Source of the DNA: Octopus vulgaris | Lineage: Eukaryota | Length of the DNA: 64,000 nt | Direction of reading: 5' to 3' | NCBI GenBank assembly: GCA_951406725.2 | Contig: OX597818.1 | Span: 19,840,001 to 19,904,000, forward strand | Part shown: positions 6,831-57,290 of the stretch, piece after piece | Layout: every line of letters starts with the position of its first letter | How positions within the stretch are numbered: the stretch's first letter is position 1 | The notes under the pieces: model-generated | Told to the model about the DNA's origin: nothing | Databases searched by the model: none | What the model saw: the letters and a program-made list of their open reading frames with translations, nothing else | Program-made: the position numbers and the translations under genes

Positions 6831-8365
6831 ATGGATAGCCTACAGCACTCAGACCACATGCAGGCTTCAATAACATTTTGTATGCTGTGATTATATAAAC
6901 CTAGCATTTTAGCACAAAATTTTAATTTCTTTTTACACCTGAATCTGTTGATTTAACAATTTTTATTTCCTCATTCAATAATGCTTTCTCTTAAGCTTTG
7001 GTGAAAGAAGACGATTCTTCAATTTATGGACCTGAAGTAAATCTCTGCCTAGATTCAACACTGGGACTTATTTATTAATTGCAGTTATGAATTTTGTAAT
7101 AAGCATGAACTGAGAACATCAAAAAGAATCTTCTCAATTAACTCATAAGACTTTTGAATTTAGCACAAAACACAGTTTGAGATTCTTTAAATAGTTTTAT
7201 TGATATGAAATATATTTACATCTTGTGAATCAAGCACACATCACATCACGCATACACACACATCACACGCTCACATACATCACACACACACATCACTCAC
7301 ACACACATACACATACATACATACATACATATATACATTCATACATACATACATACATATATACATTCATACATACATACATACATACATACATACAACA
7401 GTTCTTTGTGACATATGTACATGACAATGATTAGCAACACATCTATATCAATTATTTATGACACGCCTACAACAGTGATTTGTGACATACACATGTGTCA
7501 CCAATTTGTAACAGGTCTGTATCAGTTACTTGTGATATAAATGTATGTTTGTGTCTCAGGATTATCTGCAATGTTCCAGCAAATTGTGACACATACCATT
7601 ATTGCAGATTTATGATACAGCTCTTTACAACTTCATTTTACAGGAATTAATCTGCAATTTGCAACATACATTTACACATAATAGCAATTTTAATTTGGAA
7701 CCCTTTATAGGTAACAGGTAGCAGTAATGGAAATTTTCACACGAAATATTTACAGCTACTTGAAGATGTATAATTTAATTAAAAAATATTCCTTGTGATA
7801 AATATGTAACTGTAAATTATGATGGATATATAGCTGTAAATTGCAACAAACACTTGTAATTTCTGTTAAGCATGTATTTGTAAAATCTTTGAGCTAAAGA
7901 TATTAGAAATATTTACAGCTGTTTGCCAAATAAATGTATCTGAAATGAGAAGAAAGAAAAAATATTTAGTAAATCATTGAATGATATGTTGATGTAGTTG
8001 TGGATATTATTGTGTTATGTTTTAAAAATATAGTAAACTAATTCATTGTCTATAATATAACAAAGAATAACACTTGTGTATATAATGTTGTGTCTGGGGA
8101 GAGTCATTCTCTTTTATTGCCTTGTAATTTAACACACTCACTAGTAAAATTTCCACTTATTTCCTACTTTATTTTTCTAAAATTTTCGTTATGCCTTGCA
8201 ATCTTTTCAATAGTTTTGATTCTGTCTGTTATTCACACTGCATTCCTTTTTGTTTGTTTGTGTGCATGTCTGTGGTTTAGTGTGTGTGTATGTGTGTGTG
8301 TATACATGCATGTGTGTATGCATGTATTTATGTGTGTATGTATGTACATTCTCTATAATATATTA

Positions 8366-8600
8366 AGGCGGCGAGCTGGCAGAAACATTAGCACGCCGGG
8401 CAGCGAGATGCTTAGCAGTATTTCGTCTGTTGTTACGTTCTGAGTTCAAATTCCGCCGAGGTCGACTTTGCCTTTCATCCTTTCGGGGTTGATAAATTAA
8501 GTACCAGTTATGCACTGGGGTCGATATAATTGACTTAATCCGTTTGTCTGTCCTTGTTTGTCCCCTCTGTGTGTAGCCCCTTGTGGGCAGTAAAGAAATT
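8366..8600 (+). mobile_element. tRNA-derived SINE (family 2); further copies at ~23550-23765, ~55220-55430 and a fragment at ~18480-18545 (-)
   Basis: aggcggcgagctggcagaa...gagttcaaattccgccgaggtcgactttgcctttcatcc shared by all copies; B-box gttcaaattc. Confidence 0.8.
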
Positions 8601-8611
8601 AGATGTAAGTA

Positions 8612-8691
<80 letters not shown>

Positions 8692-10189
8692 TATATGTAT
8701 ATGTATATATATGTATATACACATGTATGTAAGCGTATGGATATGAAAGTGAACAGATCGACATACAGACAGATAGGTACATAGGTTATATGAACAGACA
8801 AGCACACATACACAAATGAAGACTGAAACACATGACCATCTATACCACACACATTTTATTTCACACAAGGACACATGAAGACACACGTCCACACATATGG
8901 AGATACATATTCATGCATACAAACACGGTACATAGTTGCAAAACACACACACACACATGCACAAAACCACACATGCACAAAACCACACAAACACGAACAT
9001 GCAAACACATGAATATGCAAAATACATACATACAAATGTACATACATACACACATAAATGCATGCTTACACACATGCATGCATACATACATACATGCATG
9101 TATATGCACACACACACATACACACACACTAGAAGTAAGAAGTTTCAACTACCCAAAATCTACCAATGCATCTACATTCACAGCACAAAAAAAAAAACCA
9201 CTCACGGATTATTTAAGTCATATAATGAATGCTTAATTGGTCCATCAATGAGGATTTCTATATCTCTGCAAAACAAACAAAAATTATACTTGTAGAAATA
9301 TTTATTGCCAGAAAGTTACCAGAAGTACAAAGTTTCTGGCACTAAATTTAGGAGCTCAAACTGTACTACATATATTGTTTTCAAGGTGTTATTGTTGTTG
9401 CAGTTGTAAATGTTGTTGCTGAGTTATCCTTGTCAACCCTGCTCAAGTAAAATTATGTATTAGGCTTAGGAGTGATTTGTGACTTCAGTGTATCAGATAT
9501 TTCAGGCTATCATTCAATATTTGGTTAAAAGAGGCCATTTTTCATTATTGTCCTTTAGAACCAAGTCAACCCTGATCTAGTTGACTTTTGAGCAATGGTA
9601 TTCCAACTATGACCATCCTGTTTTTGTATTCAGACATATCATATTATATCAAGAATACATTATTAAAAGTCTCCTTCCTTCTACTAAGTTAATATGGTGG
9701 AATTTCTAGAAAGTCAAATGATGACACAGAATCCTGCCCACATGAAGCTTCTTCATAGTTTAGTGTTATCATTCCTCTCAGCAAACTATTTTAATGACAA
9801 TGATATTATCTTGGCCTACATATATATCCAGGAATTAAACACCTCCTGATGATGACGAGGGACCAACTTGATTGAAACATAAATTGTAGATTTTATTTAT
9901 GGTCTAGTTTAATACTACCATTCAATATTTGTGTTCCTTTAACAGAGTCCACTTTGTTGAAAACATTTGTGTCACATCTCTGTATTGAGAATAACTTCTC
10001 TTCCTACCACTAATCTCAGAATCCCTCCACCCAATAAAAAATTAAAATAAGGGCTTAAAATATCACCTTTCCTTCTCCAACTAAGCAGTACAAAAAAAAA
10101 AGGTGAATTTTGTAAAATTTATACTCTAATGTGGTGGTCAATAATCTGGAAAGTCATCATCTTAGTATATTGATCAGTAGCTATATAGT

Positions 10190-10395
10190 TTAGAAGTACA
10201 AATCACCTATCCTGGAGCATAATTTGCTCGTCCTGGACTATAAATTCTTCGTCCTGGAGTACGAATCACCAACCCTAGAGTATAAAATGCCTATCCTGGA
10301 GTACAAATTGCTCCTCCTGGAGTATAAATTATTTGCCATGGAGTATTACTTCACCATCATAGCATAGTACTTCCTACCTTTGAGTACAAATTAAT
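10190..10395. repeat. Degenerate 21-bp tandem repeat (cctggagtayaaatt...), about 8-9 units
   Basis: cctgga/cctaga recurs at 21-nt spacing from about 10212 to 10340. Confidence 0.8.
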
Positions 10396-10487
10396 CCACC
10401 AGAATGTTCTACTCCACCACCTACCGGTACTAATACCCAATAAGATGTACAGCTCTCCTATCTGTAATGGTGCACATTGTTGAATCA

Positions 10488-10506
10488 TCAAAATATTTGA
10501 TGGTAC
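10488..10506 (-). CDS. Candidate terminal coding exon of membrane protein B (..K-YHQIF*); alternative acceptor at 10541 gives ..N-YYLSHGM*
   Basis: attattttag acceptor in phase 2 after exon 10702-10729. The competing acceptor tactttctgtttgtag makes the choice ambiguous. Confidence 0.35.
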
Positions 10507-10701
10507 CTAAAATAATTCACATCCCATGTGACAAGTAATAACTACAAACAGAAAGTACATTCAATCACTGAACATCTTCTCGTATCTTAATTCAATTGAT
10601 TTTACTAGATAAGTCTATACCAGTTTTCTATCATAGTACTTCTACAAACTTTCAGGGTATTAAAAGATGGTAACAAAAATTAATAAATTTTCAGGACTTA
10701 C

Positions 10702-10729
10702 TTGGGTGTCTCGCTTGCAGGAGTGATTA
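10702..10729 (-). CDS. Small cytoplasmic-tail exon of membrane protein B (VITPASETP)
   Basis: Long poly-T tract + ccag acceptor, gtaagt donor, open in phase 1. Confidence 0.7.
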
Positions 10730-11854
10730 CTGGAAAAAAAAAAAAAAAAAAAAAACATTATTGGGTATATCTTTTAAAATCAAAACATTTAGAAAAATCC
10801 ACTTGATAGTTTAATGGTGACTTTGGAGATGGATTTCTAAAGACTATACTTTGCTTCAAATTAAAATCGAAGAAACTCTATTAATGAAGGGAATGAAAGA
10901 TTCAGGAATTCCTTCTGTTAAAAGAATGAGGAGAATTTCAAAAACTAAGGATAAAAATTATGCTCTAAATCCCCTTCCTTCCCTTCCTCCTCCTCCTCCT
11001 CCTCCTTATCATCATCATCATCATCTTTTTTTTTAACATCCATTTTTGTATACTCACATGGGTTGAACAGGATATTTTGAAGCAATGGCTTACAGCCATA
11101 TGCCCTTCTCAATGCTAACCCTTTGAGTTAACTCTTATAAGCAGAAGGTATACAGTGTAACTTTTCTAACAATCAGAATATACACAATATGAATAGCATT
11201 ATTGCAAATACGACTATAATTACAAAATGCAACATGCTGTCTCAAGCTTTCTTTTGAATTTTTTTATATTCCTGTGGAATGTAGATCTAGGATTCAAAAT
11301 CAAAAAGAGTGAGATGAGCCCCATACCACATCCAGGTATTGACTATTTATTCTAATATGCAGCAATCATTATCTTTATTAAGGTACAAAATATTAAATCT
11401 GTAACCTTATTCAAAATAAATTGGACACAGAATTTCAAATGAGCAATCCTTGCTGGTATTTTTAATTTAATATTTAATTACTGAGTTATTCTTAACTTTG
11501 AAGATAATTTTCCTCCCAGTGACTATAGATTAGATATGTTTTTGATGGATTAAATACTTTTATAGATAATCATTTGAGATGGAATGATCAAGAAATTGTT
11601 TTGTGCAGAGTGTGTTGGATTAATTTAAACCACACTAAACACTTTTCCCAACTTTTGCTCCTCAGATCATTCACCCGCCTGGAATCTCTTCCTCACTCAC
11701 ATATTTCTGAAAACACCATCCTACAGTGCTCAAGTTAGCCACACCAGTCTCACACACCTGGATGGAGGACTAGTTACAAGTCATAGCTATGGCCACTGAT
11801 TAATTTATAAAAATGAAAAGTAAAATAATTTATAAATCAAAGAGAATACATTAC

Positions 11855-11887
11855 CTATTCTTGGAATAATTTTCTGAGATTTTAATT
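11855..11887 (-). CDS. 33-nt phase-1/phase-1 cytoplasmic exon of membrane protein B (ELKSQKIIPRI)
   Basis: ttttttcttatag acceptor, gtaatg donor, in frame with the TM exon. Confidence 0.65.
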
Positions 11888-12119
11888 CTATAAGAAAAAA
11901 AAATTTTAATATTTTATATCAAATATGAAATCATTTCACTTTTTTTAAAACCAAAAATACATATTTTACACATATCAAATTGTCTTATTTATTTTGCATC
12001 AATATTATAATACTTAGGACTCAGCAAGTGATTTTCCTATTCCCAACAACATAGTTGAATGTACCTTTGGTACTGTTGTGGATATATTAACTAAAAATGA
12101 GGATGTCTCAACATTTGTG

Positions 12120-13253
12120 AGCACAGTGACCTTTAAGCAAAAATACTGAAAGTACAGTTGCTAGAATATAAACTGGCTGGAGAAAGTTCAGGGAGTTATT
12201 ACCTATGTGAATAATAGAGTGAAAGGTAGGTTGTATGATGCTTGTGTATGAATAGCAATGCTACATGATAGTGAAACATAGGCCAAGAATGCAGATGATA
12301 TGCAAAGACTAGAAAGAAAAGAATCTAGTATGCTCATCTGGATGGGCAATGACAGAGTGCATGTACCACAAGTGTTAATGTATTGAGAGAAAAATTAGGC
12401 ATGAGACGCATCAAATGTAGTGTGCATGAGAGAAAACTATGCTGGGATGGTCATTTGATGGATGGGGATGAGGACAGTTGCATAAAGAAGTGCTGATCAT
12501 TAAAAATTGATGGAACCTGAAGAAATAAGAGACTCAAGGAGACACGGACAAAATATTGAAGACCATTATCACATTGTTGAGCCACATGGAGGAGATGACA
12601 AAGGATTGAGATGATTCATGATTTGTTATGCTCAAGAAGATCTGTCCATCTCAACAAAGAATGAGGTCCTAAAAGCAAATTGCTTACTGACTCTGTATCC
12701 AGTTAATACATGCCAAGCTTTCTCCACCTCTCACTTTTCTAATACCCATCCCTCCATTACTCTGCTAACTACAACACTACTTATTCAGGTGTATTTATAA
12801 GTAAAATCATGGCCATATACAGGCACGTGCTTTATAGCCATGCTCTCCTCACACACATACACATACACACACATACACACACACGCGCATGCACGCACAC
12901 ACACACAGACATACACACACACAATCTGTCCTCTGTCAATTCAAAACTCCCCCAAAACCCATCATCTTAAAGCCCCACCATCCCACCACCCATGATCACC
13001 ACCTGCTTCAGGCACCTCCACTCCCTCTCTCACATACCTGTCCACACATTCTCCATGCCCTCAACTACCTACCATACCTACCCCAGCCACTCCAATTTTT
13101 CTCACCACCACTTACAGCATTCACCTCTTCCCCCATCTCTAAACATCTCCTTTAACACTCTTATGAAACATAACCCTCTATCCCCTCTGTACCACTTATA
13201 TACCCCACCACTGTTCCATGTCGATAGATCCCAATGCATCTCCAACACTATCA

Positions 13254-13295
<42 letters not shown>

Positions 13296-13705
13296 CACTT
13301 TCGCTTTCCCTCCCATCCTCTCTCACTGTCTCCCTGTCTTTCTTTTTAGCTCTATCTCTCCATTCTCTCCTTTCTTTTCCTACTTAGGTAGCCAAATATC
13401 TCCTCCACAGTAAGAGCCGTAGCATCGCTGTTCCTCTGTTTAACCTTTAACCTCTCATCAGGCACAAAGCTATTTCCCTCAGTACTGCTCCCTCTTCCAG
13501 CCAAGAGCTCTTTGTCTGCAACTTACTTGGTGACAGTACACTCTGTAAAGTGGTTGGCTTTAGGAAGGGCATCTAGCAATAGAAACCATGTCAAAGCAGT
13601 CAATGGAGGCTCCAGCTTGGCAGCTTCTATCAAACCAACCAACCCATTCCAGAATGGAAGACAGTCATTAAAGGATGATGATGATCTTGATGATCATGAT
13701 GATGA
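12120..13705 (+). mobile_element. Old degraded RTE 3' half with long pyrimidine-rich 3' region and (GAT)n tail
   Basis: Remnants of RVKGRLYDACV/AMLH.SET at ~12215-12290; tail aagtggttggctttaggaagggcatc...gatgatg at 13548-13705. Confidence 0.7.
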
Positions 13706-14383
13706 TACATATATACATATCTACCTACCTACCTACATATATACATACATACATACGTACATACGTACATATGTACATAAATACATACGTACATACATAC
13801 ACACATACATGTGTATATACATACGATGAGGTGTTGAAAAGCTCCTGGCTTTGACAAAAGAAAATACAAGAGGATCAGTTAATTATGATATTATTCAACA
13901 TATTCCCTTTTGAGATTCACACACTTATTGCAGTAGTTCTTATATTGTTGCTATTATGCAATTATATATATATATTAATATATAGATCAATAAATGGTGG
14001 GGTTGTGTTGACTGCACGTGGAGAAATGATAAGTAAGGAAAAATTTTTTTTAAAATGCAGAATGCTCAAATGAAAGAAAATTTTAATAAAATGAGAAAAT
14101 GATAAAATATATAAATATATATATTTATTCAACCGGTTTTCGTCAATGTATGACTTGTCAAGAATATTTATGTTTTAAGAAGTTTTTTTAAAAATTAGAA
14201 AGGGGAAAAAAAGAAAATTGCAATGTTTTTTGTAAAAGAATAATGATAAAAATGTACAAAAATTAAAAAATAAGTTCTCCGATACATTGTGAGTTCGTTG
14301 TGTATCTTGAGTTTTATGGTTGTTTACCAAAAAATTACCTTGAGGTGTTAAGATCCAAAGGGATTAAGAGCATGTGATGTGTT

Positions 14384-14496
<113 letters not shown>

Positions 14497-14789
14497 TGTC
14501 TGGACTCCTCTTCCTACTCCTCGACATGGCCATGCATACTTAAGCTAGTAACCTGCCTCACTCTTGATTCCGAACTCCTTTTGCCAAGTCTGTCCGTAAA
14601 CGAAGTGATCCCAAGATAAGAAATCTTTGAACTTTAATTCATCCGTATCTCTATTTATTATTATTATTTATTAATTATTATTATTCTGATCCCCCTAGTC
14701 GCCACTCTGTTTACTATTTCAGCCTCGCCTCGTTTTTGCATATTCTGTATAATTCACTAGTTATCGTTATAGATATTTAGGTTCTATCT

Positions 14790-15795
14790 CCCTTACAGGG
14801 CTGATTAGAAATTGGCTGCCGGTTCTTCGCGGCGCGCCCGCCCTACCCACCCCCACCACCAATACCGGATATCTCTATTTTGCTCCAACTATACTGGATG
14901 TCGTTTCTCCCACCATTATAGGTGTCTACTCTTTGAACCCCTCTCTTCAATACGCTATTTCACCATGCATTACCCCTCTCTCGATATCCTACGTTCTACT
15001 TGCCTAGAACCTGTCCTCTGAACCACCCCTCCCACTGGTGCTCCCCCATATTTCTGCACCCCCCACCACCATTATAGGTGTCTACTCTTTGAACCCCCCT
15101 CTTCAATACGCTATTTCACCATGCATTACCCCTCTCTCGATATCCTACGTTCTACTTGCCTAGAACCTGTCCTCTGAACCACCCCTCCCGCTGGTGCTCC
15201 CCTATATTTCTGCACCCCCACCACCACCATTATAGGTGTCTACTCTTTGAACCCCCTCTTCAATACGCTATTTCACCATTTCACCATGCATTACCCCTCT
15301 CTCAATATCCTACGTTCTACTTGCCTAGAACCTGTCCTCTGAACCACCCCTCCCACTGGTGCTCCCCTATATTTCTGCACCCCCCACCACCATTATAGGT
15401 GTCTACTCTTTGAACCCCCTCTTCAATACGCTATTTCACCATGCATTACCCCTCTCTCGATATCCTACGTTCTACTTGCCTATTACCTGTCCTCTGAACC
15501 ACCCCTCCCACTGGTGCTCCCCTATATTTCTGCACCCCCCCATAAAAAAAAAAAGCACCATCCGAACGTGGCCGATGCCAGACCCCTCTGGCACCTGTGC
15601 AGGTGGCACGTAAAAAACACCCACTACACTCGCGGAGTGGTTGGCGTTAGGAAGGGCATCCAGCTGTAGAAACACTGCCAGACTAGACTGGAGCCTGGGG
15701 CAGTCCCGAGCTCTCCAGACCCCGGTCGAAACCGTCCAACCCGTGCTAGCGCGGAAAACGGACGTTAAACGATGATGATGATGATGATGATGATA
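14790..15795 (+). mobile_element. Non-autonomous RTE derivative: 5'-UTR segment, 4 x ~155-160-bp tandem unit, then RTE 3' tail
   Basis: gcgcccgccctacccacccccaccaccaataccggata matches the RTE 5' UTRs (reverse complements of ~30230-30250 and ~35390-35430). Units start at ~14910, 15066, 15224 and 15387; canonical tail at 15545-15795. Confidence 0.8.
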
Positions 15796-15810
15796 TATAT
15801 ATATATATAT

Positions 15811-16055
15811 ATCGTTGCTATAATGAAAAAGTGTTGGAAGTTCAAAATGTTGCTTTTTCAGAAAACGAAAAAAATAGTTTCACCATTCCATAGCAAAACC
15901 GTTGAACTACACTTTGACAATTTTTGATATCTAGGCATCTGAAGCAGCTGGAGATATGATAATTTGACCAAAAGAAAACCGGCTATTGCAAGCAAAAATA
16001 AATATTGAAAAAACCGCATTTGGCCAAATTTGGACATACGACATAATAGCAACTA
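15811..16055. mobile_element. MITE with ~15-bp TIRs inserted in (TA)n
   Basis: Left atcgttgctataatg; right cataatagcaactat (rc atagttgctattatg). Confidence 0.6.
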
Positions 16056-16069
16056 TATATATAGATAGA

Positions 16070-16225
16070 TAGGCACAGGAGTTGCTGTGTGGTAGGAAGC
16101 TTGCTTCCCAACCACATGGTTCTGGGATCAGTCCCACTGCATGGGTAAGTATTTTCTACTATACTCTCAGGCTGACCAAGGCCTTATGAGTAGATTTGGT
16201 AGAAGAAAACTGAAAGAAGCATGAT
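16070..16225 (+). mobile_element. tRNA-derived SINE (family 3); further copies at ~39967-40290 (+) and ~43500-43620 (-)
   Basis: ggagtggctgtgtggtaa...ccacatggttccgggttcagtcccactgcg...gatttggtagacggaaactgaaagaagc consensus in all copies. Confidence 0.8.
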
Positions 16226-16232
16226 GTATATA

Positions 16233-16264
<32 letters not shown>

Positions 16265-16308
16265 AGTATGTATTTGTAGGTCTGCATTTGTCCCCCTTCT
16301 ATCGCTCA

Positions 16309-16348
<40 letters not shown>

Positions 16349-16493
16349 CACATTAAGTACAGGACATCACCAACAAGTGAAAAATACATAAACACATGAC
16401 AGATAAATACAGGACAAAATACCAAGAGAAGATAACTTGCTCGTCAGTTGTCGACTGTTTTACTACTCCCTATTACAGGCAGACACACAGATT

Positions 16494-16579
<86 letters not shown>

Positions 16580-16632
16580 CAGATGTACATTATAAATTTA
16601 TTCTTGACAATGATAAAATATACTGTCCTCAC

Positions 16633-16812
16633 CAGATTCTATTTCATCTTCCTTTCTCGCTGACACTTTCCGCCAAATGCAGGCAAGTATGACTGCTAAG
16701 AGACAAATTGAAGATATGGCAGCAATAATAATGATGATGATATCTTCTTCTGGCAAAACTTTATCTCCATGATATGGTGTTGTTTCCACATAAGTCACAG
16801 TTGTATGTTCAG
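16633..16812 (-). CDS. Transmembrane exon of single-pass membrane protein B (Thr-rich stalk + TM helix + basic stop-transfer)
   Basis: Poly-T cag acceptor, gtgagg donor, 180 nt phase 1/1: EHTTVTYVETTPYHGDKVLPEED-IIIIIIAAISSICLLAVILACIW-RKVSARKEDEIES. Confidence 0.85.
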
Positions 16813-16873
16813 CTGAAAAAAAAAAAAAATTTTATCATGTTAATCTATATGTGTGTGTGTGAGTGTAAGTATT

Positions 16874-43470: not shown

Positions 43471-44379
43471 CACACACACACACACACACACAACACACAC
43501 ATGACGGGCTTCTTTCTGTTTCTCACCTGCCAAATCCACTCACAAGGCCTTGGTCGGCCTGAAGTTATAATAGAAAACACATGCCCAAGGTGCTATGCAA
43601 TGTGACTGAACCCGGAACCATCTTTATTTCATATAATTTGCCACAAGAGTAAGAAGCTTGTGGGCTGGACGCAGACAAAATGAGATGAAATGAAAACATA
43701 ATGATAAAGAAGAGAGGGATATCGGCGCCCAACGACCAACAAGCACATGAATACAATTTTTCCTTTACAATCAAAATATCAAACAAAAATTCAAAAAAAT
43801 ATCAATGCAAATCAATAAGGTGAAGGTCAATCCTCCTCATTGGAGCCCCCAAGCAAGTTGACAACTCTGCACCGACAAGTCGGGGCCCGTGAAGAGGAAA
43901 GCAAACTCTTTCTTGTCAAAGGTCGCTATGAGCCTCGACAGAATTTTATGCCACCTGCGGAGGCCATATTGGACTGCCTATGCAGTCTGAGTACCTACAG
44001 TCTCGGTCGCCCAGGCCGTCCAAAAATTCTCCCACAGGCCCTCCCTCGTGATAAAGGAGAACAAACGCCTCCTCCTCCTCACGGAAAGGGGCCTCAAGCT
44101 GTTCCGTCAGATAGGAAAGAGAGACAGTCTTGCACCAAATATTGAACACTGTGTAGGGTACCACTGAGTGGGAACAGAAGTGAGTGTGTGACATTACATT
44201 GACTAACAGCCATAAAATGTTGCACAGAAAGTCAACACACACATATATATATAAGGATGAAGGAAATTGTTGTATACAGTGCTCAGGTGCACTACAACTA
44301 AAAAGAAAAAAATGGCCATCAGGTGCACTGTTGGAAGATTTCAGGACACGTGGAAATTTTGAAGGATGTAGTATAGTTT

Positions 44380-45118
44380 TCGACCGACTTTCCAGGAAGT
44401 TAGGAAAATCTTAGAACTTTCCATGAATCCACGGGACTTTCCAGGAAGTTTCCGAATGATTTTCCAGGAAGTTGGGAATACCCGGAACTTTCCATGAAAT
44501 CCCCGGAACTTCCCAAGAAGTTTCCGATCAATTTTCCAGGAAGATGGGAAATCCCCTGAAATTTCCATGAAATCCACTGAACTTTCCATGAAGTTTCCGA
44601 ACGGGTTTCCAGGAAGTTGGAAATTCCCGGAACTTTCCAGGAAGATGGGAAACCCCCGGAACTTTCCATGAAGTCCTCGGGACTTTCCATGAAGTTTCCG
44701 ACCTAATTTGGAACTTTCCATCAAATCATCGGGAACTTTCCATGAAGTTTCCAAACGGGTTTCCAAGAAGTTTGGAAATCCCCGGAACTTTCCATTAAAT
44801 CTTCGGAACTTTCCAGGAAGTTTCAGACCAAATCTCCATGAAGTTGGGAAATTTTCCATGAAGTTGGGAAATCCCCGGAATTGTCCATGAAATCATCGGA
44901 ACTTTCCGATCAATTTTCCAGGAAGTCAGGAAATCCCGGAATTTTCCAGGAAATCCTCCGAACTTTCCCTGAAATCCTAGGAACTTTCCGGTCAATTTCA
45001 CAGGAAGTCGGAAAATCCCCGGAACTTTCCATGAAATCTTCGGAACTTTCCAGGAAGTTTCCGAACGGTTTCCCAGGAAGTTGAGGAATCCCCGAAATTT
45101 TCCAGGAAGTTTCCGACC
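44380..45118. repeat. ~740-bp complex tandem array of ggaactttcc / ttccaggaag / gggaaatcccc subunits (higher-order unit ~75 bp)
   Basis: Directly visible recurrent 10-11-bp subunits. Confidence 0.9.
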
Positions 45119-48100
45119 ATGTGTATATGAGGATATGGTTGTGTACACACATGTACACATATATATGCATGTGTGTGTGTGTGGATATGTGTATGTACAA
45201 GTACATATATATATGCTTGTGTGTATGTGCATATATATGTTTGCATGAGTGTATATGTATGTAGACACCGGAGGTTTTATATCTATGTATTGTGAGAATA
45301 TTGTTGCTTGTATTTTTCATATATTTTTACTACATGTTAGAGTCACTTCCCTTTTTATTCACGGTTTTTCATAGCGTATCTTGCCATTAATAGCTGACAA
45401 GAATATATTGTAGCTCTTCACTCTGACATTTGAAACTCCGAGTACTATAATGACAACCTTTTATTGTTTGTTCTAAATCATAACATGTATATATATATAT
45501 ATATATATACATACATACACACACACACACATTGTTCATCATAACTGGGGCAATCTCATTCACTCTACCATATTTTACTTGTTGCCTTAAAAAAACTACA
45601 AAATAATCGCCTTTTTGTCCACTTTTGTATGTTTGTATAGGTTGACTGGGTCCTCCCAAAGAGAGTATTCCATTGTCATCTCGTTTTGGAGGTTCAGCAT
45701 CTAGAATTCAGTTTTCTATCTTTCTTGGTCTTACTTCACTAATTTCCTTCTGTTTGGACTTCTTTACTCAACTATCATCATTCATATGCACTGCAAATCT
45801 ATACCAAAGCAGTCTCCTCCCTTCCATACATTTTATTCCTTTTATACCAAATTTCTTTCTCAATTCATCTGTGCCCTGTTCTTTTTACAAATTAACAAGA
45901 CACATCCAACAGAACTTGCTCACTTCATTTTTCTCTATCCTTTGCACAACCTCTCCATTCAATACCTATATCTTTCTATCATGCAACATTGTACTTTGTA
46001 CACAATCTAACTTTTACTTGAAGAGAGAATTTTTTTTGTTTTCAACAGAGATAAAAGATCCCCAAACTTTTCCTACCCTGTACTTATTTTGACTGCTCTT
46101 TCAGTATACTCTCTTTTACTGCTGATCAAATCATATAGTCAACAGATGTTATCAACTACTTTTATGGACCCTTCTGTGCTTAGGAAAGCATTTAGTTTAT
46201 TAGTGTTCTAACTGCAAACTCCTCTAGTACATCTGCCACATATATCTTTTTTCTCTGTCAGCTTGTATATGATTACAATATTCCTCTTGTGTACCCGTAG
46301 TTTACACTGAGTATACCATATGAATCTCCTACCTTCTGTTCTGTTTATTGAACCTGATTCTTGTCTTCTTCCCTAATTACTAAAACCTTCATTTTCAGTA
46401 AGTCTTAATAAAAACTAAGCAGGAACGATATGTTTATTGGCATATGGTTGATATTGTTTGAATCATCATATTTTTACAAATTTGCTGCCAGTCTGTTTTA
46501 TTTTTCTGTTAAGTGTCTATCTGAATGAACCTTGTTAAGCACATAACACAGTTTATAACTAACCAATTAGCTAGGGCAAAATATTGGTCCAAAGTATTCC
46601 CATCAACAACTGTGAGCTGAAGATAGTATATGAGTTTACATACCTTGACTCCATCTTCATTGATCTACCTAAAGTTTGAGATCAAGAGAGGGTGGAGAAG
46701 TGTAGCCTCATTTCTAGGTGGTATGACAAAGATAGAGTGGAAGAATAGCAAGATGACAATGTGCAATAAAATTGCTGTCTACAGAGATTGCATCCTCAAC
46801 ATACTGCATTATAAGAATGAGAATTGGAGTCACTACTTCAGTTACGAGCAATGTCACAGCACTTTCCATCTTTATATCATAAAGTAGACTGACTAAATCA
46901 CCAATAATGACTTCTGGTTTGCATCCAGATATCAAGCTTCTTCACCCAGCTTTCAAAATGATGTCTCTACTGTGAGACCCACATTCACTCATATCATATG
47001 GAATGACTTTGAAAGGTTAGGAGTTGGTAACCTGTGAAAACGTAGAAATGTAACCCTTCCTATCTTTGTTTTCAAAATGTCTGCAAGAGAGCTATATAAT
47101 CCCCGATCAGAAACCTTGAGAGGTGACACTCTTATTAGTGTCTTGAAGTAGATGAGAACTTAAAAAGATAAAGCTCGCAGCTAGAAAAAAGTGTAGTTGC
47201 TGAAAAACACACCAGGCAGTAATGACAAACAATGCCTTCAACTGCAATTATTTATTTAGCTCAAAATTATTTGAAGATGTGTCAAGTTTTTAGTTAAAAT
47301 GTTGTGTGTGTTTCATTAAAAGTTTTACCTTTTAATATCTTTTTTTTAATTTTGGCAGCCCTTAATAAAAGAAATATTGGTGAGAGAAATTGAAATTCCT
47401 TGAAGTTTTCCCTTACCCATGGCCTTATCTTTAAGCAAGCTTTATGCAAAAAAGATGTTTAAAATATCCTTTTCAGGTCAACTGAAGGAGTAAATTGAGT
47501 GCTTTTTCCCTTTCAGAAATACATGAAGATCTAGTTGGCTGTTCTCTTCTATTATATACAATTCTCCAACAGACAAAGAAAGCAACACGGTTTAGTGAAT
47601 GCCCTATTACATGCTTTTAACATAGGAATTACTTTATGATTTCTCCAATAGTGATCACTGAACTGAATTGCATTAAAAAAGAATTCCATGTCAACATAAT
47701 GTCTGCTAGATGTAGTGAATGTGTGTTGGGAATTTTTATGATGCAATATAACTGCTTTTAATGTTTGTAGTGATGAATCAATTAGAAAAAAATAGCCATC
47801 TCCTTATAAACAAGCAGATAAATTTGTCAGATAAATGTCAGATAAACAAGCAAAACATCCATAAATGTGACCATATCAAAAGAGAGGGCTTTTAACCTAG
47901 AAATGAACTGTTAAATCAAAATTTCACTTATTGTTATATTTTCTTCAGGCAAGTGTCTTTTTTTCAAACCAGAGTTTTAAATCCTTCACCAGATCATTCA
48001 TACTTTTTTATGTGAAAAGAATTGAAGAATTGAACATATACTCCTTGCTACTTTATATCTAAAGCCTAAACAAACATTAGAAGCACCTTTAGTAATTGCA

Positions 48101-48399
48101 ATGTAATCAATATTTTCATCATAATTGGAGCTGAGTCCATCTTGGGAAAGAATATAAACACTGTTTCATCATACACAAATCTATACACAGAGTTCAAATT
48201 TGTGCTTTCCAAAAGAAAACCCTTGAAATATTCAAAGCCAGAGCTTCTGAAGCTGACATATACCGTCCCTACTTTTATTAATAGAAATGCAAAACAGAGA
48301 TTTTATTCACTTAATTCTTCATCTTTTGGCAAATTTTGGAAAATTTAAAAGTTGGAAATACAATCTACATAATTTACACATAAAAATAATAATATAATA

Positions 48400-48830
48400 A
48401 AGCTAGCTCACTGATAAGCTCCTTAATTCTAGGTTAAATGCTTGCAAGATTATTTGCGTATACTTTCTACCTGTAGATGACATTTCTATTTCGTTTTTAA
48501 ACTAGTTAAAGATTTTTTTCACATCAATATGTTGAGCCAAATGGAGGCAGGATTTGTATTATTTTCTTTGAACAATTTGTGTACTGCTGAGTAGGAATAA
48601 ACTCATTCAAAAAGCTTTGAAAAACAAGATTTTCAAAGAAGTATCAGTTTTCATGCAAATAATTTCTTCTCTTAACTCTTGTAGAACTTTTTCAGTATCA
48701 TACATTGATTGATTCACTAGTTAATTGTATTTTTTATCTGGAATTTCAAAGAAGTGTTAATACTTAAACTTTCTGTCTCTTCAAGAAAGTTATTTCTGGT
48801 AATGTTTGCAATTTCTGTGGCTTCGGAAAA
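48400..48830 (-). mobile_element. hAT (Charlie/Buster-type) transposase C-terminal remnant
   Basis: Minus strand PPFGSTY*CEK...KTK*KCHLQVE...PRIKELI resembles the PFGSTYLCE..FS...KTK.R.RL dimerisation motif. Confidence 0.6.
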
Positions 48831-48984
48831 TTGTTTAATCAGAATGATATGATATGTAATTCCTTCTCAATTGCTGTTTCTTACAAAATACATAAATTTT
48901 ACCATTTTTGAGGAAGCAGATCTGAATGCTGTTCTTGGAAAGATTAAGTGAAAACAATGACTGTATCAAAGAAGTTAAGCTGGC

Positions 48985-50080
48985 TGTAGTCAAATGCAAC
49001 TCTATACATTTTGGGAAGTAAAAACCTAGAATGTACCTACTCCTTCCACAACACAAACCTTAAGAAATCTGCTGGTGAATGTGACTTTATCAACAATATT
49101 AGTCACATATGTTTTAGGCTTATTTTCTGCTGAATACTGGACTCTTGTGGCTTTATTCATAGATAAGATAAATGTAAGAGGAATTTCTATGCAGTTAGAA
49201 AATTGACTGTAGGCTTAACATAGATCAACATAAAGCCAAGAAACACCAAAAAGAAGCATATGTAGAAATAGTCCAAAACATATGGGGTTTGATATGTAAG
49301 GGCTTGATATTGTTGATAATAATGACAAGGTCATGATCACCAGCAGACTTCTTAAGGTTTGAGTTGTAGAGCAGTAGGTACATTCCAGGTTCATTTCCCC
49401 CAAAATGCATAGTGATGCACTTATCAACAGCTAACTTAAGTTGCTAGTTAACAATCCTTATGTCCAGGTTAGATTGTAGGAAAGATCTTTAGTGTATAAG
49501 ATCTATGCATTTTACTTCGAGGTACAGCTTAATGTCTGCATGTTAATATATGCAACAAAGAACAAGGACTTCAGGCATCATCACATAAAGTGCAGTACTG
49601 TGGTTAGTACCATGGCTACCTCTTTTCATACAAGAATAAAGAACTTCAACAAATTATGAAAATAAACACTCACACCCATTTCAAAGAGAATTGCCTAAGT
49701 CACTTGAGTGATACAGAATTAAAGGTTTTGATGAAGATGCAATAAGTAATAGCCACCCATTTGTAATATGAATGACGTCTTCAAGAACTTTCATAGCAGC
49801 TGGAGTGAGGGATGAATCCAAATTATGAGGATTGAATATGTTTATGAGAGTTCCAGAATGTATTCCAGATATGGGACTGCATCAGTTTAGTGATACGGCT
49901 GGTGAGACTGACTAGTTGATAATTGGCAAGTGATGTGTGGTCACTCCTTTTGAACAAGGGAATAATGCTGGCAATTTTCAAATTTTTTGTGGGTAATGCA
50001 ATTATGAAGGTAGAATTAGAAGAGGAGTAAAAGATGATATAGCAGAAAGAGCTCATTGCATTGAGAAGCAGATAAGTAAC
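48985..50080. mobile_element. CR1/L2-like LINE remnants, including an inverted pair of the same segment
   Basis: KIASIIPLFKRSDHTSLANYQLVSLTS (49823-50056, -); MHFG..N...Y.L segment at 49215-49425 (-) and 48990-49170 (+). Confidence 0.6.
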
Positions 50081-50261
50081 ACACTCAAGACTAGGGGAAA
50101 TATAGTTGCATATACTCTTGAGTTGGCATCACTACATTGTAGTTGTAATTTCAACAGATGTCATAAAATTAGGAGTCGTTAGCAGTGAAGTTGGTACATT
50201 TCGATTTTCAATAGCAAAAATGCCAGCATAGCATTTGGCAGTAAGTTCTGTACAATTTTTG

Positions 50262-51340
50262 CAAAGGCAGCTGCAGGAGAAGTACCCTACCAAAAATAAA
50301 CCTTTGTACCTAGCTTTGTTGACATTGAGAAAGCCTTTGACAGGGTTCGCCAATCCCTTATGCAAAAAGCTAGGAATAGATGAGTGGTTGGTTAGAGCTG
50401 AACAAGCCATGTACAGGGAAGCTGACAAAGTGAGGGTTGGCAATGAGTATAGTGATGAATTCAAGGTACAAGTAGGGATTCACTAAGGATCAGTCGTCAG
50501 CCCTCTCTTGTTCATCATAGTTCGCCAGGCAATAACAGAGGACACATAAGAAGTGCAGCAATATCAGAGGAAGGTTAACAGGGAAAATAATTTTTGTGTG
50601 TGGAAGGTGTGCAAGTACAATGAATAATAATGATTTACAGAAAATAGACTCCATCAAATGCTAGGGGAGAAACTAGAAGTAGTTGATAGCTTCGGCTATC
50701 TAAGTGACCAAGTCAGTGGTAGAGGTGGATGCTCCAAGAGCATAGCTGCTAGAATAAGAATAGGCTGAACAAAGTTCAGAGAACACCTATCTCTATTAGT
50801 AACTAAGGGCCTCTCCCACAGAGTGAAAGGCAGACTGTATGATGTCTGTGTATGAATGGCCATGCTACACAGCAGTGAAGCATGGGCTGTGAATGTCGAG
50901 TACATGCATAAGCTTGAAAGAAATAAAGCAAGTATGCTTTGCTGGATGTGCAATGTCAGTGTGCACGTACAACAGTGTGTAAGTGTCTTGAGAGAAAAGT
51001 TGGGCATAAGAGACATCAGATGTGGTATGAAAGAGAGACAACTATGCTGATATGATCATGTGATGCATATGGATGAGGACAGCTGTGTAAAAAAAGTGTC
51101 ACACTCTAACTGTGGAGGGAACCTGTGATAGAGGTAGACCCAGGAAGTCATAGGATAAGGTGGTAAAGCATGATCTTCAAACATTGGGCTACATGAAAAC
51201 AATAAGTGACTGAGACTTTTAGTGATATGTTGTGCTTGATAAAATGTGTCAAGCCAAGAGAAACTGTAGTCATGGTTGATGCTGGTGTCACGTAACTGGT
51301 ACACATGGTAGTGGCACATAAAAAGCACCTGCTTGATATA
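50262..51340 (+). mobile_element. Older degraded copy of the main RTE family with internal deletion
   Basis: RQLQEKY, KLGIDEWLVRA, AMLHSSEAWAV, LREKLGIR. Confidence 0.85.
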
Positions 51341-52103
51341 GCTGGATGCTTTATTGTAGTTCCTCTCCCCACCTGCCCTACACATTTTTTGACATTCAGG
51401 AACTTTTCATATTTCCAAGCCTCTTTGTTCTTAGTGGCAGTGAAAATAAGTATACATCTGTTATTTCAAATACAGTTCCCACCCCCACCTCCCACGAGAT
51501 ATACTGTTTCACATTATAGAACATCTCAGAATTCTGATCCTCTCATTACAGAGCATTGGCAAATCTCCTGAGTGCAGTTACTCTCCATGTTATGTGAACT
51601 TGACACCTTGCTTCCTTTCTTATTACTTGGTATTATTCCTAAGGCAAAACATTTGTCATTTGGACATCAATGTAATTTTTTTTCACCAAACTCTACCTTT
51701 ACCTCTAATCTCATCTCAGAAATAACTTCAAATTTGGATATCTATGTTAACCAGAATTAGATAATTCTTAACATGTCTGAGTGGTTTACATCTAAATCAA
51801 CACTGGTAATTCAAGACAAAACAGCAGAAGTTCACAAGGGAGATTGATCTCAGAATATATATTTTCTAACAATATATATATCTATATCTTTTTATAAATA
51901 AAGCATCCGCTACACTCTCAGAGTGGTTGGCGATGGGAAGAGCATCCAGCTGTAGAAACACTGCAAGATCTGATTGGAGCCTGATGTGGCCTCCTGGCTT
52001 GCCAGTCCCTGATCAGACCGTCCAACCCATGCCACCATGGAAAACGGATATTAAACAATGATGATGATCTATATATATTTATATATATTTATATATATAT
52101 ATA

Positions 52104-53801: not shown

Positions 53802-53886
53802 TATATATATATATATCTATATATATATATATATATATACATATGTAAGAAATTCACAATGCATATTAGATTCTTCCTGCTACTTT

Positions 53887-54005
53887 TTAATTCTTGAATA
53901 TGATTAGAGCAATTATGATTCCCAGGAGAAGGTTTGTGCATGGTCTGAATATGTAAAACCCTGAGTCAGTATCATCATCAGTTTTTACTCCTGGTGAAGC
54001 AGCAC
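53887..54005 (-). CDS. Terminal exon of Ig-like protein A encoding a GPI-signal-like tail (C-AASPGVKTDDDTDSGFYIFRPCTNLLLGIIIALIIFKN*)
   Basis: atctttgcag acceptor, phase 1 matches the upstream exon; small-residue omega-like DSG, spacer, terminal hydrophobic stretch, TAA. Confidence 0.75.
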
Positions 54006-55887
54006 CTGCAAAGATAATCAATATAATACATAACTTAGTATTTATTAAAAATAAGTATATTTGTGTAATTTAAGAGGTTCCAATTAGCCAAATGAGTTTT
54101 ATTTAGTCTGAAGAAACGTACTGTTTATAAAATTTTTACTTCTGGACTCAGGAATAGGGTTAATTGGATGAAGTTATAGATTAATTTGGATCTTTGGATA
54201 CAATCATGTTGACTCAGTTTAGTGACTGAGTGGAAAATACAGAAATGTGGAGTTTCATGTTGTTGAATTTATGGGAGAAATGATTGGGCAATGTGTTGAG
54301 AATAGTGTTTAGATATAAAATGAATGGTTTATTTAAGTGTAGCTTTTCGACTACAAGTTATAATGAACAGGTGTTGTTGTAGTGATATTAGAAGTCCTAT
54401 GGTAGAAGCCTATTAGAAGATGATTTTGGTAGACTAATGAGGTTGAGGGATATGAAAAAGTATCATGGTAAGGAGCAATGATAGAGTAGAGTCAGTAGGT
54501 GGTCACAAGGTAGAGGTTTGCAGTATAGATTATGGTAGACTACAGCGGGTACATGGTTAATGAGTAGAGGGTAGTGAAAAGTATCATGGCTAGCTATGGT
54601 AGATTACACTTGATAGATAGCAAATGAAATAGAGGGATGTAGAAAGTTATGGTCTATAGGAAATGGCTGGTATAAACAAATTACCATAACAGAAGAGTGT
54701 ATATCTAGGATAATATTATCTAATATCACCCTTCATTTTTAAGATGTCAGGATGTGATAGGAGGTATTTCTAATCAGTGATTACACTGGTGCTTCTTTGC
54801 TGGCTCTAAAAGTATATTATAGAGAACTAAGTGATATTTAAGCCAATTAACTTTCTTATTGTAGATGGAGCATAGTAATTACTTCTACTACCATTCAAAG
54901 TTTCTATTCACAACTGCTCATGGAAACATAAATCTGCTCTAGATTCCATATTTAATTGCCAATGGTACAAGTATCACTTCTACTATTTTAATTCTTGTCA
55001 TATCTAAAGCACCTTACTACATATGTTTCAATGACCATGATGTACATTGCTGTCCTATATGCACAAAAAGATGACAAATGTCTTTTTTCTTATCTCCTAA
55101 CATACATAAATCATTCCAAAGGTTAGGGTTAGGGTTAGGTTAGGGTTCCTTAATATTTGGAGAGTTATTAAGCCTTATTATTTAGAGAGTAACAATTTCA
55201 TAATATAAAGAGAGTAGCAACGGTGGTGAACTGGCAGAATCATTAGCATGCCAGGCAAAATGTTTAACAGCATTTTGTCTGTCTTTACATATTGAGTTCA
55301 AATGCTGCTATGGTCAACTTTGCCTTTCATTCTCTCAGGGTTGGCAAAATAAGAACCAGCTGAGTACTGGGCGCGATGTAATTGATTCACCCCTGCCCAA
55401 AAATTACTGGCCTTGTGCCAAAATGTGAAACCAATATAAAGAGACTAGTAGATCTTTAATATTTACAGAATAACAGAGTTCCATAATATTTTGAGAGTAA
55501 TATATATTTGATATTTGAAGAGTAACAGATCCTTAATATTTGAGAACTAACAGCTCCTTAATATACAGAGAGTATTAGACCCTTAATTTTTAGAGAGTAA
55601 CAGATCCTTACAAGTATTTAAATGAGATCGCAGATCATTTTAATATGATTCTTTTAAGGAAGATTTAATAGTGTTTATAGCAGTAGACATAAAAGCACAT
55701 TATGAGTGACACTAATATCAGGATCATCCAATTTACAATAAATATATTAATTATGAAATAACACACAAAATATATTTTAAGGAAGTTGAGAATGATACAA
55801 AAAGTTTACAGTCAATATATTTAAGCATTAAAAAATTAAACACAATTTTCAATATAATTTATAAACATTATGAAAATACTCCCTTAC

Positions 55888-56050
55888 ATTGAAAGTCTAT
55901 AAATCGTTTCTCCTTGAATAAATCTTTCATAGTGAAAATACATTCCACTTTTCCAGTAGCTGAAGAACTAACATTTAGTATAACATCATTGGTGACAGTT
56001 TTCCCATCAGGACATGTATTTCTTTGGATTGCAATAAATTCAGTAGGAAT
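55888..56050 (-). CDS. Exon of protein A, second half of Ig-like domain (IPTEFIAIQRNTCPDGKTVTNDVILNVSSSATGKVECIFTMKDLFKEKRFIDFQ)
   Basis: Strong pyrimidine tract + cag, gtaagg donor, 163 nt phase 0 to 1, open; beta-strand pattern with G-x-V-x-C. Confidence 0.8.
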
Positions 56051-56073
56051 CTGAGAGGAAAAAAAGAAAAGCT

Positions 56074-56108
<35 letters not shown>

Positions 56109-57110
56109 CAGAGACAGAGAGAGAGAGAGATGGTTAGAGAGAACGAGAGAGAAGATAATTAAAAAGCATCAGGAAGTACACTTTTATTCTCTCACATTCA
56201 TTTCTCTATTCATTTCTAATTAAATTTCTTGACTTATTAACATAATTATTTGATACAATATTATTAGGATACTCTAACAAGTAACCAGAACTAACTATGG
56301 CACATGAAAGACCTACATGGATGACTTACTTGATATTATGAATAAGTTCTTCGCTGATATAGTATAAGAGAAGTTGATAGAACAAGCATTGAACACAGTT
56401 CTAAATATACAACACTTTTATTCCAGAAACCATCTTCTGCAACTAAGTGTTATCACACAAAATTTGTTGACTTTGTCAAAGTATATCTTTCATTAACTAA
56501 AAGGACTTGGAGATATTCTGAAATTTGAGTTTGACATTTTAGTTTTATTCCACTATACTGAAAAACATGACACAAATCAAGGAAACACACACAACATCCT
56601 TACCATTCCTAAACAACACACAATTAAGCTTTTGCACATTCTCTATGAATTTTAGGTTATACTGTCTCTTAGAACCTCTCATTGTAGTTTCTACAAATAC
56701 CAGATAACCAAGACTGCATCACTAAAACTGTTTCCTTTTAAGGATCAAAAATATTGGAGTAGAAATAAAAAATTCTAAAACTTATATAAGGCTCAAGTCC
56801 TAGAGAAATACAGATGGAATTATAGATGTTATTACACCCAAAGACTGCAATCCAATATGATTACAATAGTTAAAAAGGAATCCAGAATCAAAAACAATGA
56901 TTGTGTAGTAAAGTAGTAGCTAGACAAGTGACCACATAGTCCATCAGTTCAAATTTTACTGAAGTCCTTGTGCTGTGCTCCTGACCAAGGCACATAATTA
57001 TGCTTGTTCCAAATTGTTTGTCTAATATAAATATTCCACTCCTTACCCCAAAGTTGAGTAGGTTAATGGTACAAAGATAAACACAGATAAAAAGAATTCT
57101 GTTTACTTAC

Positions 57111-57211
57111 CTTTCTAATGTAACATTCTATACGTGTCGCAGGTAAAGAACATTGTGCTGTTACATTGTATATACAATTTCTTATTACCTTGATCTCCAA
57201 CTTTGGTTTCA
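57111..57211 (-). CDS. Exon of protein A, first half of Ig-like domain (KPKLEIKVIRNCIYNVTAQCSLPATRIECYIRK)
   Basis: attttacag acceptor, gtaagt donor, 101 nt phase 1 to 0; V-x-P-x-L start and P-A-x-x-I pattern of C2-type Ig domains. Confidence 0.8.
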
Positions 57212-57290
57212 CTGTAAAATATGTCACAAATATGATTACATGTGAGTATAGGCAACCATCCCACACTTATAAATTCTTCTTCATAAGAAG

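What the first reader, a model, noticed from the sequence alone, without database searches (positions are those of the whole stretch)
44380..45118. Tandem array composed of NF-kB, STAT and ETS-like sites between two surface-protein exon groups
Seen: canonical kB sites GGGACTTTCC (44433, 44679) and GGGAAATCCC (44546, 44866), many GGAACTTTCC variants, roughly ten TTCCAGGAA plus TTCCCGGAA/TTCCATGAA (TTC-N3-GAA, the STAT GAS consensus) and overlapping AGGAAGT (ETS core), on a ~10-11-bp period close to one helical turn. Inference: a satellite or transposon-borne repeat that could act as an immune-inducible enhancer or factor sink. The alternative is a DNA-transposon subterminal repeat where the motif match is a by-product of GGAA/TTCC composition.
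Basis: partly seen in the sequence, partly recalled or inferred. Interest (0 to 1): 0.7.

Follow-up and report, generated by a model that had tools for sequence, protein, structure and literature searches.

The report
Transposon-borne repeat resembling immune enhancer
This stretch is a fast-changing tandem repeat left behind inside a broken copy of a jumping DNA element that occurs at many places in an octopus genome; its STAT- and NF-kB-like motifs are really there, but they are likely a by-product of the repeat unit, not a working immune enhancer.

Summary
The motifs are real and at the stated places: 23 GAS and 11 kB-consensus positions, far above shuffles. But they are copies of one 73-bp unit made of 23-, 29- and 21-bp subunits, not a 10-11-bp lattice. 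The array is the central tandem repeat of a non-autonomous, hAT-type DNA transposon. Of 26 complete copies (1.7-9.3 kb, imperfect 15-bp TIRs), 25 have 8-bp target duplications with at most one mismatch and 19 carry the array. The window holds only a relic, 264 bp of left arm plus array, with no ends. The array is central, not subterminal. It changes faster than the arms, its kB G's are among the least conserved positions, and motif density is family-wide. Best reading: transposon-borne minisatellite, likely inert here. Binding and accessibility could not be tested, so a mobile STAT/Rel platform is not excluded (about 12%).

The parts
44109..44372 (+). Relic of the left arm of the non-autonomous hAT-type element (arm positions about 1392-1654); this cargo is the C-terminus and 3' flank of a CR1-type LINE lying on the minus strand
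   Evidence: 94% to arm reference copy; 667 candidates in genome, scored copies 89-96% identical; RT-type translation of sister copies (the CR1 label is recalled); same arm-array junction in six other loci
44375..45120 (+). Tandem array, about 10 degenerate 73-bp units of three subunits (23, 29, 21 bp), each ending in TTTCCA(G/T)GAA
   Evidence: 622 candidates in genome, 40 scored
44433..44442 (+). kB consensus match GGGACTTTCC (a variant of the unit's GGAACTTTCC)
44546..44556 (.). kB consensus match on both strands (present in the 73-bp family unit)
44679..44688 (+). kB consensus match GGGACTTTCC
44866..44876 (.). kB consensus match on both strands
53887..57212 (-). Context, not part of the element: last three exons (57212-57108, 56050-55888, 54005-53887) of a 253-aa predicted surface protein with a hydrophobic C-terminus
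7906..16815 (-). Context, not part of the element: five exons of a 113-aa single-pass membrane protein; start exon not located

Best explanation
The array is the central tandem repeat of a non-autonomous DNA transposon with short imperfect inverted ends and 8-bp target duplications, likely moved by a hAT transposase; the window holds an end-less relic of it, and its STAT/NF-kB/ETS-like motifs are likely a by-product of one amplified GGAA/TTCC unit with no regulatory role here. Shown: the element's ends, TSDs, cargo of other repeat fragments, central array, many internal deletions, and the relic state of the window copy. Inferred: a hAT transposase elsewhere in the genome moved it in trans. Slippage between the three internal TTTCCA(G/T)GAA repeats reshuffles and re-expands the array, giving the 21/23/29/52/73-bp periods. 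Deletions erode the unique arms, so the array survives in the middle while neighbouring arm sequence is lost.
For: 26 elements with both ends among 70 stretches examined; 8-bp TSD exact in 19 of 26, at most 1 mismatch in 25 of 26, against 2 of 650 non-cognate pairs; TIRs match at 9-12 of 15 positions; array in 19 of 26. Left end 450 and right end 330 candidates. 27 of 52 array-selected loci, window included, abut arm sequence in the same orientation. 16 of 29 other loci retrieved by the left flank alone carry the array within 1.5 kb. Window versus six same-junction siblings: arm 88-94% identical, first 330 bp of array 79-86%, unit order not colinear. In 736 units from 52 loci, GAS core positions are 0.80-0.95 conserved, like many non-motif positions (0.87-0.94), and two kB G's are only 0.53 and 0.59. 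Some arrays have no kB site at all. Counted as one unit, a GAS plus a kB match arises in 3.2% of dinucleotide, 5.8% of trinucleotide and 18% of 4-mer shuffles. Five complete main-family copies lack the array.
Against: No autonomous partner found: none of the top 30 of 150 scored hAT-domain loci had these ends within 1.5 kb, so hAT membership rests on the ends and TSDs. 25 of 52 array loci do not abut the arms. The window copy is in the upper range of motif density (rank 4 and 6 of 49, a set chosen partly by likeness to the window). The mean of GAS core positions (0.883) exceeds the mean of other non-CpG positions (0.812), and no GAS position is bimodal; this may only reflect that GAS lies in the part shared by all three subunits. 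All three motifs together arise in only 0-0.9% of di/trinucleotide unit shuffles. 'Inert' is untested: no chromatin, binding or expression data were obtained.
Confidence: 0.78

Rival explanations
1. The array is a functional cluster of STAT and Rel sites that the transposon spread through the genome; this copy, or some copies, act as cytokine- or infection-inducible enhancers or factor sinks.
For: 23 perfect GAS sites in 746 bp. 5 of 22 neighbouring GAS pairs lie 20-21 bp centre to centre, the commonest spacing of mouse STAT5 tetramer sites (PMC4990345, Introduction). Two Rel-homology gene loci exist in the genome. Precedent: MER81 and MER41B carry RELA/STAT1 sites (PMC12212084, abstract and passages). 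The window copy is motif-rich.
Against: kB positions decay and many arrays lack them. The array changes faster than the arms. The nearest located coding exons are 8.8 and 27.6 kb away and the genes have no known immune annotation. The motifs descend from one unit. Transposon repeats are often silenced (recalled).
Confidence: 0.12
2. The array helps the element itself: it is an internal binding platform (host factor or transposase) or a template-switch hot spot, so array-bearing copies are preferentially made or moved.
For: Array kept in 19 of 24 complete main-family copies, whereas arm bases next to it are kept in 1-4 of 24. 22 of 46 distinct deletion junctions have one end in the array, although it is about 10% of element length at the median.
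Against: Five complete copies with intact TSDs lack it. Any part of a central 2-kb right-arm window is kept in 16 of 24. Founder subfamilies share junctions. An array that re-expands would absorb deletion ends without any function. Folding is unremarkable (z -1.2).
Confidence: 0.12
3. The array is an independent dispersed minisatellite older than this element, captured by several carriers; the hAT-type element is only its main vehicle, and the window piece may have been moved by a second carrier.
For: 25 of 52 loci lack abutting arms; some join a 28S rRNA fragment, a 34-bp tandem repeat or other shared flanks. Three loci with the same arm-array junction as the window lack the left TIR and share a different right end that looks Helentron-like by eye.
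Against: This concerns origin and last move only; the window's junction is also found in three copies with the left TIR, one of them complete with TSD. No large native satellite block was seen; the longest array was 5.1 kb. No Helentron-like end lies in the window.
Confidence: 0.2

Closest known systems
Non-autonomous hAT elements (hAT features as in PMC3942097, passages read)
   Same: Short TIRs (15 bp), 8-bp TSDs, internal-deletion derivatives keeping both ends
   Different: Up to 9.3 kb; no transposase sequence; interior is cargo from other repeats plus a tandem array; partner not found
TE-borne satellite arrays: Xstir in Xmix, miDNA4 (review PMC9659126, passages), Cg_HINE of oyster (PMC7492417, passages)
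   Same: Tandem array in the middle of a non-autonomous DNA element, dispersed genome-wide, variable in length
   Different: Main carrier has 8-bp TSDs and multi-kb arms, unlike HINEs; unit is a modular 73-bp quasi-palindrome
Multicopy Pack-TIRs (PMC8277862, abstract and section 9 read)
   Same: Same chimeric interior at many loci with distinct TSDs; repeats as likely template-switch sites
   Different: Cargo identified here is LINE/SINE fragments and a minisatellite, not host gene pieces
MER81 and MER41B TE-derived RELA/STAT1 enhancers (PMC12212084, abstract and passages)
   Same: A transposable element carries NF-kB/STAT motifs to many loci
   Different: Those have ChIP, reporter and deletion evidence and few motifs per copy; here dozens of motifs per copy and no functional data

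Membership tests
hAT superfamily (non-autonomous) | Short TIRs of 10-25 bp | tested here: met
   15-bp ends match at 9-12 of 15 positions in 26 of 26 complete copies; definition PMC3942097
hAT superfamily (non-autonomous) | 8-bp target-site duplication | tested here: met
   19 of 26 exact, 25 of 26 within one mismatch; control 2 of 650. P, Merlin and some Mutator elements also make 8-bp TSDs (recalled)
hAT superfamily (non-autonomous) | A hAT transposase in an element with the same ends | tested here: inconclusive
   Genome has hAT transposases (803 candidates, 150 scored); none of the 30 fetched loci has these ends within 1.5 kb; no transposase ORF seen in copies
hAT superfamily (non-autonomous) | The window copy itself has TIRs and TSD | tested here: not met
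   Only 44109-44372 matches the arms at high identity within the window plus 10 kb each side; no end found. It is a relic
Foldback/Galileo-type elements | Long TIRs made of tandem repeats at both ends | tested here: not met
   Array is central and mostly in one orientation, 248-2821 bp and 321-8062 bp from the ends; inverted segments only inside some arrays
HINE (non-autonomous Helentron) | No TSD; subTIRs, microsatellite and 3' palindrome | tested here: not met
   Main carrier has TSDs. A minority group of five loci shares another end with a GACA microsatellite; its subTIRs and palindrome were not tested
Multicopy Pack-TIR | Captured host (non-TE) sequence between TIRs, copied with distinct TSDs | tested here: inconclusive
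   Distinct TSDs met; identified cargo is LINE/SINE-derived; parts of the arms remain unidentified
rDNA spacer subrepeat | Present in the tandem rDNA unit | tested here: not met
   No array in 6 of 6 ten-kb stretches of the rDNA cluster, which include one whole unit
TE-derived inducible enhancer (MER41/MER81-like) | Consensus motifs present in the element | tested here: met
TE-derived inducible enhancer (MER41/MER81-like) | Motif positions preferentially conserved | tested here: inconclusive
   GAS core 0.883, no higher than the best non-motif positions but above the mean of others (0.812); kB G's 0.53-0.59
TE-derived inducible enhancer (MER41/MER81-like) | Stimulus-dependent binding, accessibility and effect on a gene | not testable with these tools
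   No chromatin or binding data available
TE-derived inducible enhancer (MER41/MER81-like) | Copies enriched near immune genes | not tested
   No genome annotation on hand; only the window's two neighbours were identified

The most novel reading that the evidence does not exclude
A DNA transposon scattered a self-expanding cassette of dozens of perfect GAS sites, some at STAT-tetramer spacing, plus kB sites over scores of loci in an octopus genome. Some copies are bound after cytokine or infection signalling and act as inducible enhancers or STAT sinks whose strength varies with array length: an invertebrate, VNTR-tunable counterpart of MER41/MER81.
Probability: 0.12. Interest if true: 0.65.

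Novelty: new member of a known kind. Interest (0 to 1): 0.25.

Why it matters
As it stands, this is a new octopus example of a minisatellite riding in the middle of a non-autonomous DNA transposon, and a caution that dense motif clusters can be one repeat unit counted many times. If STAT or Rel binding were shown, it would give a ready set of scores of natural reporter loci for JAK/STAT and NF-kB signalling in a cephalopod and an invertebrate case of transposon-spread immune enhancers.

Tried and rejected
rDNA spacer origin: suggested by two loci joined to a 28S fragment; rejected, no array in the rDNA unit. Array added at the 5' end of LINE retrocopies, or a LINE 5' UTR: suggested; rejected when the 'LINE flank' proved to be cargo ending at a TIR with TSDs. 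Foldback-type TIR array and subterminal repeat: rejected. Coding repeat: the 183-aa frame over the array has no Pfam match, and 73 is not a multiple of three. Structured RNA: no Rfam match; fold z -1.2. Autonomous partner: not found (one search was dominated by SINE/LINE noise and its output was cut). STAT gene search in the genome: no match and nothing in controls, uninformative. Viral and metagenome collections: 0 matches to a 27-nt array pattern. Sequencing runs: no RNA holder listed for 46200-56150; no reads were laid, so expression, exon joins and insertion polymorphism stay open. Literature searches (listings only, apart from the six papers cited) showed no description of this element or array; Repbase and Dfam were not available and no supplements were read, so it may already be in a repeat library.

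Full report
Observation. The sequence at 44375-45120 is as described. It has 23 TTCN3GAA sites, 11 kB-consensus positions (both strands, some overlapping), 11 GGAACTTTCC and 10 AGGAAGT. In 200 dinucleotide shuffles GAS had mean 1.5 (max 6) and kB mean 1.2 (max 6); in trinucleotide shuffles GAS had mean 4.3 (max 11). The period is not 10-11 bp: TRF gives 73 bp x 9.7, and the family unit has three subunits of 23, 29 and 21 bp, each ending in TTTCCA(G/T)GAA. Across 1456 neighbouring GAS pairs in all arrays the commonest distances are 23, 29, 52 and 21 bp.

The right null. Since the array is one unit amplified, its motifs are about one draw. Shuffling the unit as a circle gives at least one GAS plus one kB site in 3.2% (dinucleotide), 5.8% (trinucleotide) and 18% (4-mer) of 5000 shuffles each. 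All three motifs appear in 0%, 0.9% and 10%. This is unusual, but not remarkable for one repeat family among many. GAS, ETS and the kB-like GGAA-N2-TTCC all follow from alternating GGAA and TTCC (direct from sequence).

A dispersed family. The genome (2.8 Gb; a protein encoded in the window is named by its source as Octopus vulgaris) gave 622 candidates for the array; 40 were scored, mostly 65-76% identical. The 264 bp left of the array are also repeated (667 candidates, 89-96% identity) and in sister copies continue into a reverse-transcriptase frame ('CR1-type' is my recalled label). Of 29 other loci retrieved by that flank alone, 16 carry the array within 1.5 kb.

The carrier. Followed outward, the shared flank ends sharply at CAGTGGCCCAGCAAC on the left (450 candidates) and GTTCCCGGGCCCTTG on the right (330 candidates), with GGGGGTGCA-like motifs inside both ends. 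Among 70 stretches examined, 26 held both ends (1.7-9.3 kb). The 8-bp duplication was exact in 19, within one mismatch in 25, within two in 26; non-cognate pairs matched in 2 of 650. Short TIRs and 8-bp TSDs define hAT elements (PMC3942097, passages). No copy showed a transposase. The genome has hAT transposases, but none of the 30 loci fetched (of 150 scored) had these ends within 1.5 kb, so the partner is unidentified. Two of the 26 belong to a sister family with the same ends, different cargo and no array.

Place of the array. It lies between left-arm and right-arm cargo in 19 of the 24 main-family copies, 248-2821 bp from the left end and 321-8062 bp from the right: central, not subterminal. 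Arm retention is U-shaped, falling to 1-4 of 24 next to the array. Distinct junctions number 22 arm-array, 19 within an arm and 5 across the centre (7 other junctions were left out as inserts or unclear). Of 52 array-selected loci including the window, 27 abut arm sequence and 25 do not. Some of the latter join a 28S fragment, a 34-bp tandem repeat or other shared flanks. The rDNA unit has no array.

The window copy. Only 44109-44372 matches the arms at high identity within the window plus 10 kb either side; no TIR, TSD or right arm remains. Its arm-array junction recurs in six loci: three with the left TIR (one complete with TSD) and three without it that share another, Helentron-like end judged by eye. 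Which carrier made the last move cannot be told.

Tests of function. (1) Against the six siblings the arm is 88-94% identical but the first 330 bp of array only 79-86%, with unit order lost; non-orthologous units may be aligned. (2) In 736 units from 52 loci, GAS core positions are 0.80-0.95 conserved (mean 0.883), many non-motif positions 0.87-0.94, all other non-CpG positions mean 0.812, and two kB G's 0.53 and 0.59. There is no clear motif-specific constraint for kB; for GAS the result is ambiguous, since it lies in the part shared by all subunits. (3) The window ranks 4 of 49 for GAS and 6 of 49 for kB density (arrays of 300 bp or more; 3 shorter ones left out; set chosen partly by likeness to the window); several arrays have no kB site. 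(4) Folding is unremarkable (z -1.2). In favour of latent binding: 5 of 22 GAS pairs in the window lie 20-21 bp apart, the commonest STAT5 tetramer spacing (PMC4990345, Introduction), and two Rel-homology loci exist. The STAT gene search was uninformative.

Context. Both neighbours are on the minus strand and uncharacterised. A 253-aa predicted protein (no clear Pfam match; Ig-like and GPI-like only by eye) stops at 53887, 8.8 kb away. A 113-aa single-pass protein has its first located coding exon 27.6 kb away. No reads were laid, so transcription is unknown.

Mechanism and verdict. Shown: transposon anatomy, central array, relic state. Inferred: mobilisation by a hAT transposase in trans; slippage between the three internal repeats reshuffles and regrows the array while deletions erode the arms; the motifs are incidental and the copy is likely inert. 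The enhancer reading has a precedent in MER81 and MER41B (PMC12212084, abstract and passages) but no data here. Seven literature searches showed no description of this element; repeat libraries and supplements were not seen. New member of a known kind; interest 0.25.

Noticed in passing
L062:5290-6300 and L071:2720-3120: Two loci share one junction between an internal point of 28S rRNA and a short array piece followed by a 34-bp tandem repeat; a single chimera copied at least twice.
   Followed up: partly
L069, L070, L071, L080, L092, L343: A 34-bp tandem repeat that resembles a segment of an abundant SINE-like repeat (by eye) is interleaved with the array; two of these loci (L070, L092) lie within 150 kb of a contig end.
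   Followed up: partly
L074, L078, L087, L088, L089: These array loci share a different right end with a GACA microsatellite, Helentron/HINE-like by eye; it seems to have captured part of the hAT-type element.
   Followed up: partly
L316, L331: Sister elements with the same TIRs and 8-bp TSDs but different cargo and no array.
   Followed up: partly
L097:5131-6673: An 86-bp tandem repeat containing the octamer ATTTGCAT abuts an array.
   Followed up: no
window 55888 and 16815: The donor after exon 56050-55888 and the acceptor of the membrane exon are both phase 1 and in frame, so the two predicted genes could be one receptor with alternative anchored and transmembrane ends; the array would then be intronic.
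   Followed up: no
window 43720-44108: GC-richer stretch abutting the relic; no match among fetched loci, no Pfam match.
   Followed up: partly
window 26908-30087: Uninterrupted 1059-aa endonuclease/reverse-transcriptase frame on the minus strand, a young LINE copy.
   Followed up: no
window 52269-52876 and 14910-15540: Other tandem arrays: 61/122-bp (SINE-like by eye) and 156-bp x 4.
   Followed up: no
L131, L132 (G000:C20:23.95-24.07 Mb): Assembled rDNA cluster with an 18.3-kb unit, 190-bp and 141-bp spacer repeats and a 362-bp repeat between 18S and 5.8S.
   Followed up: no
G000, one search list: About ten hAT-domain matches lie in 720-aa open frames with identical scores, a young, possibly active hAT family; its ends were not compared in full.
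   Followed up: no
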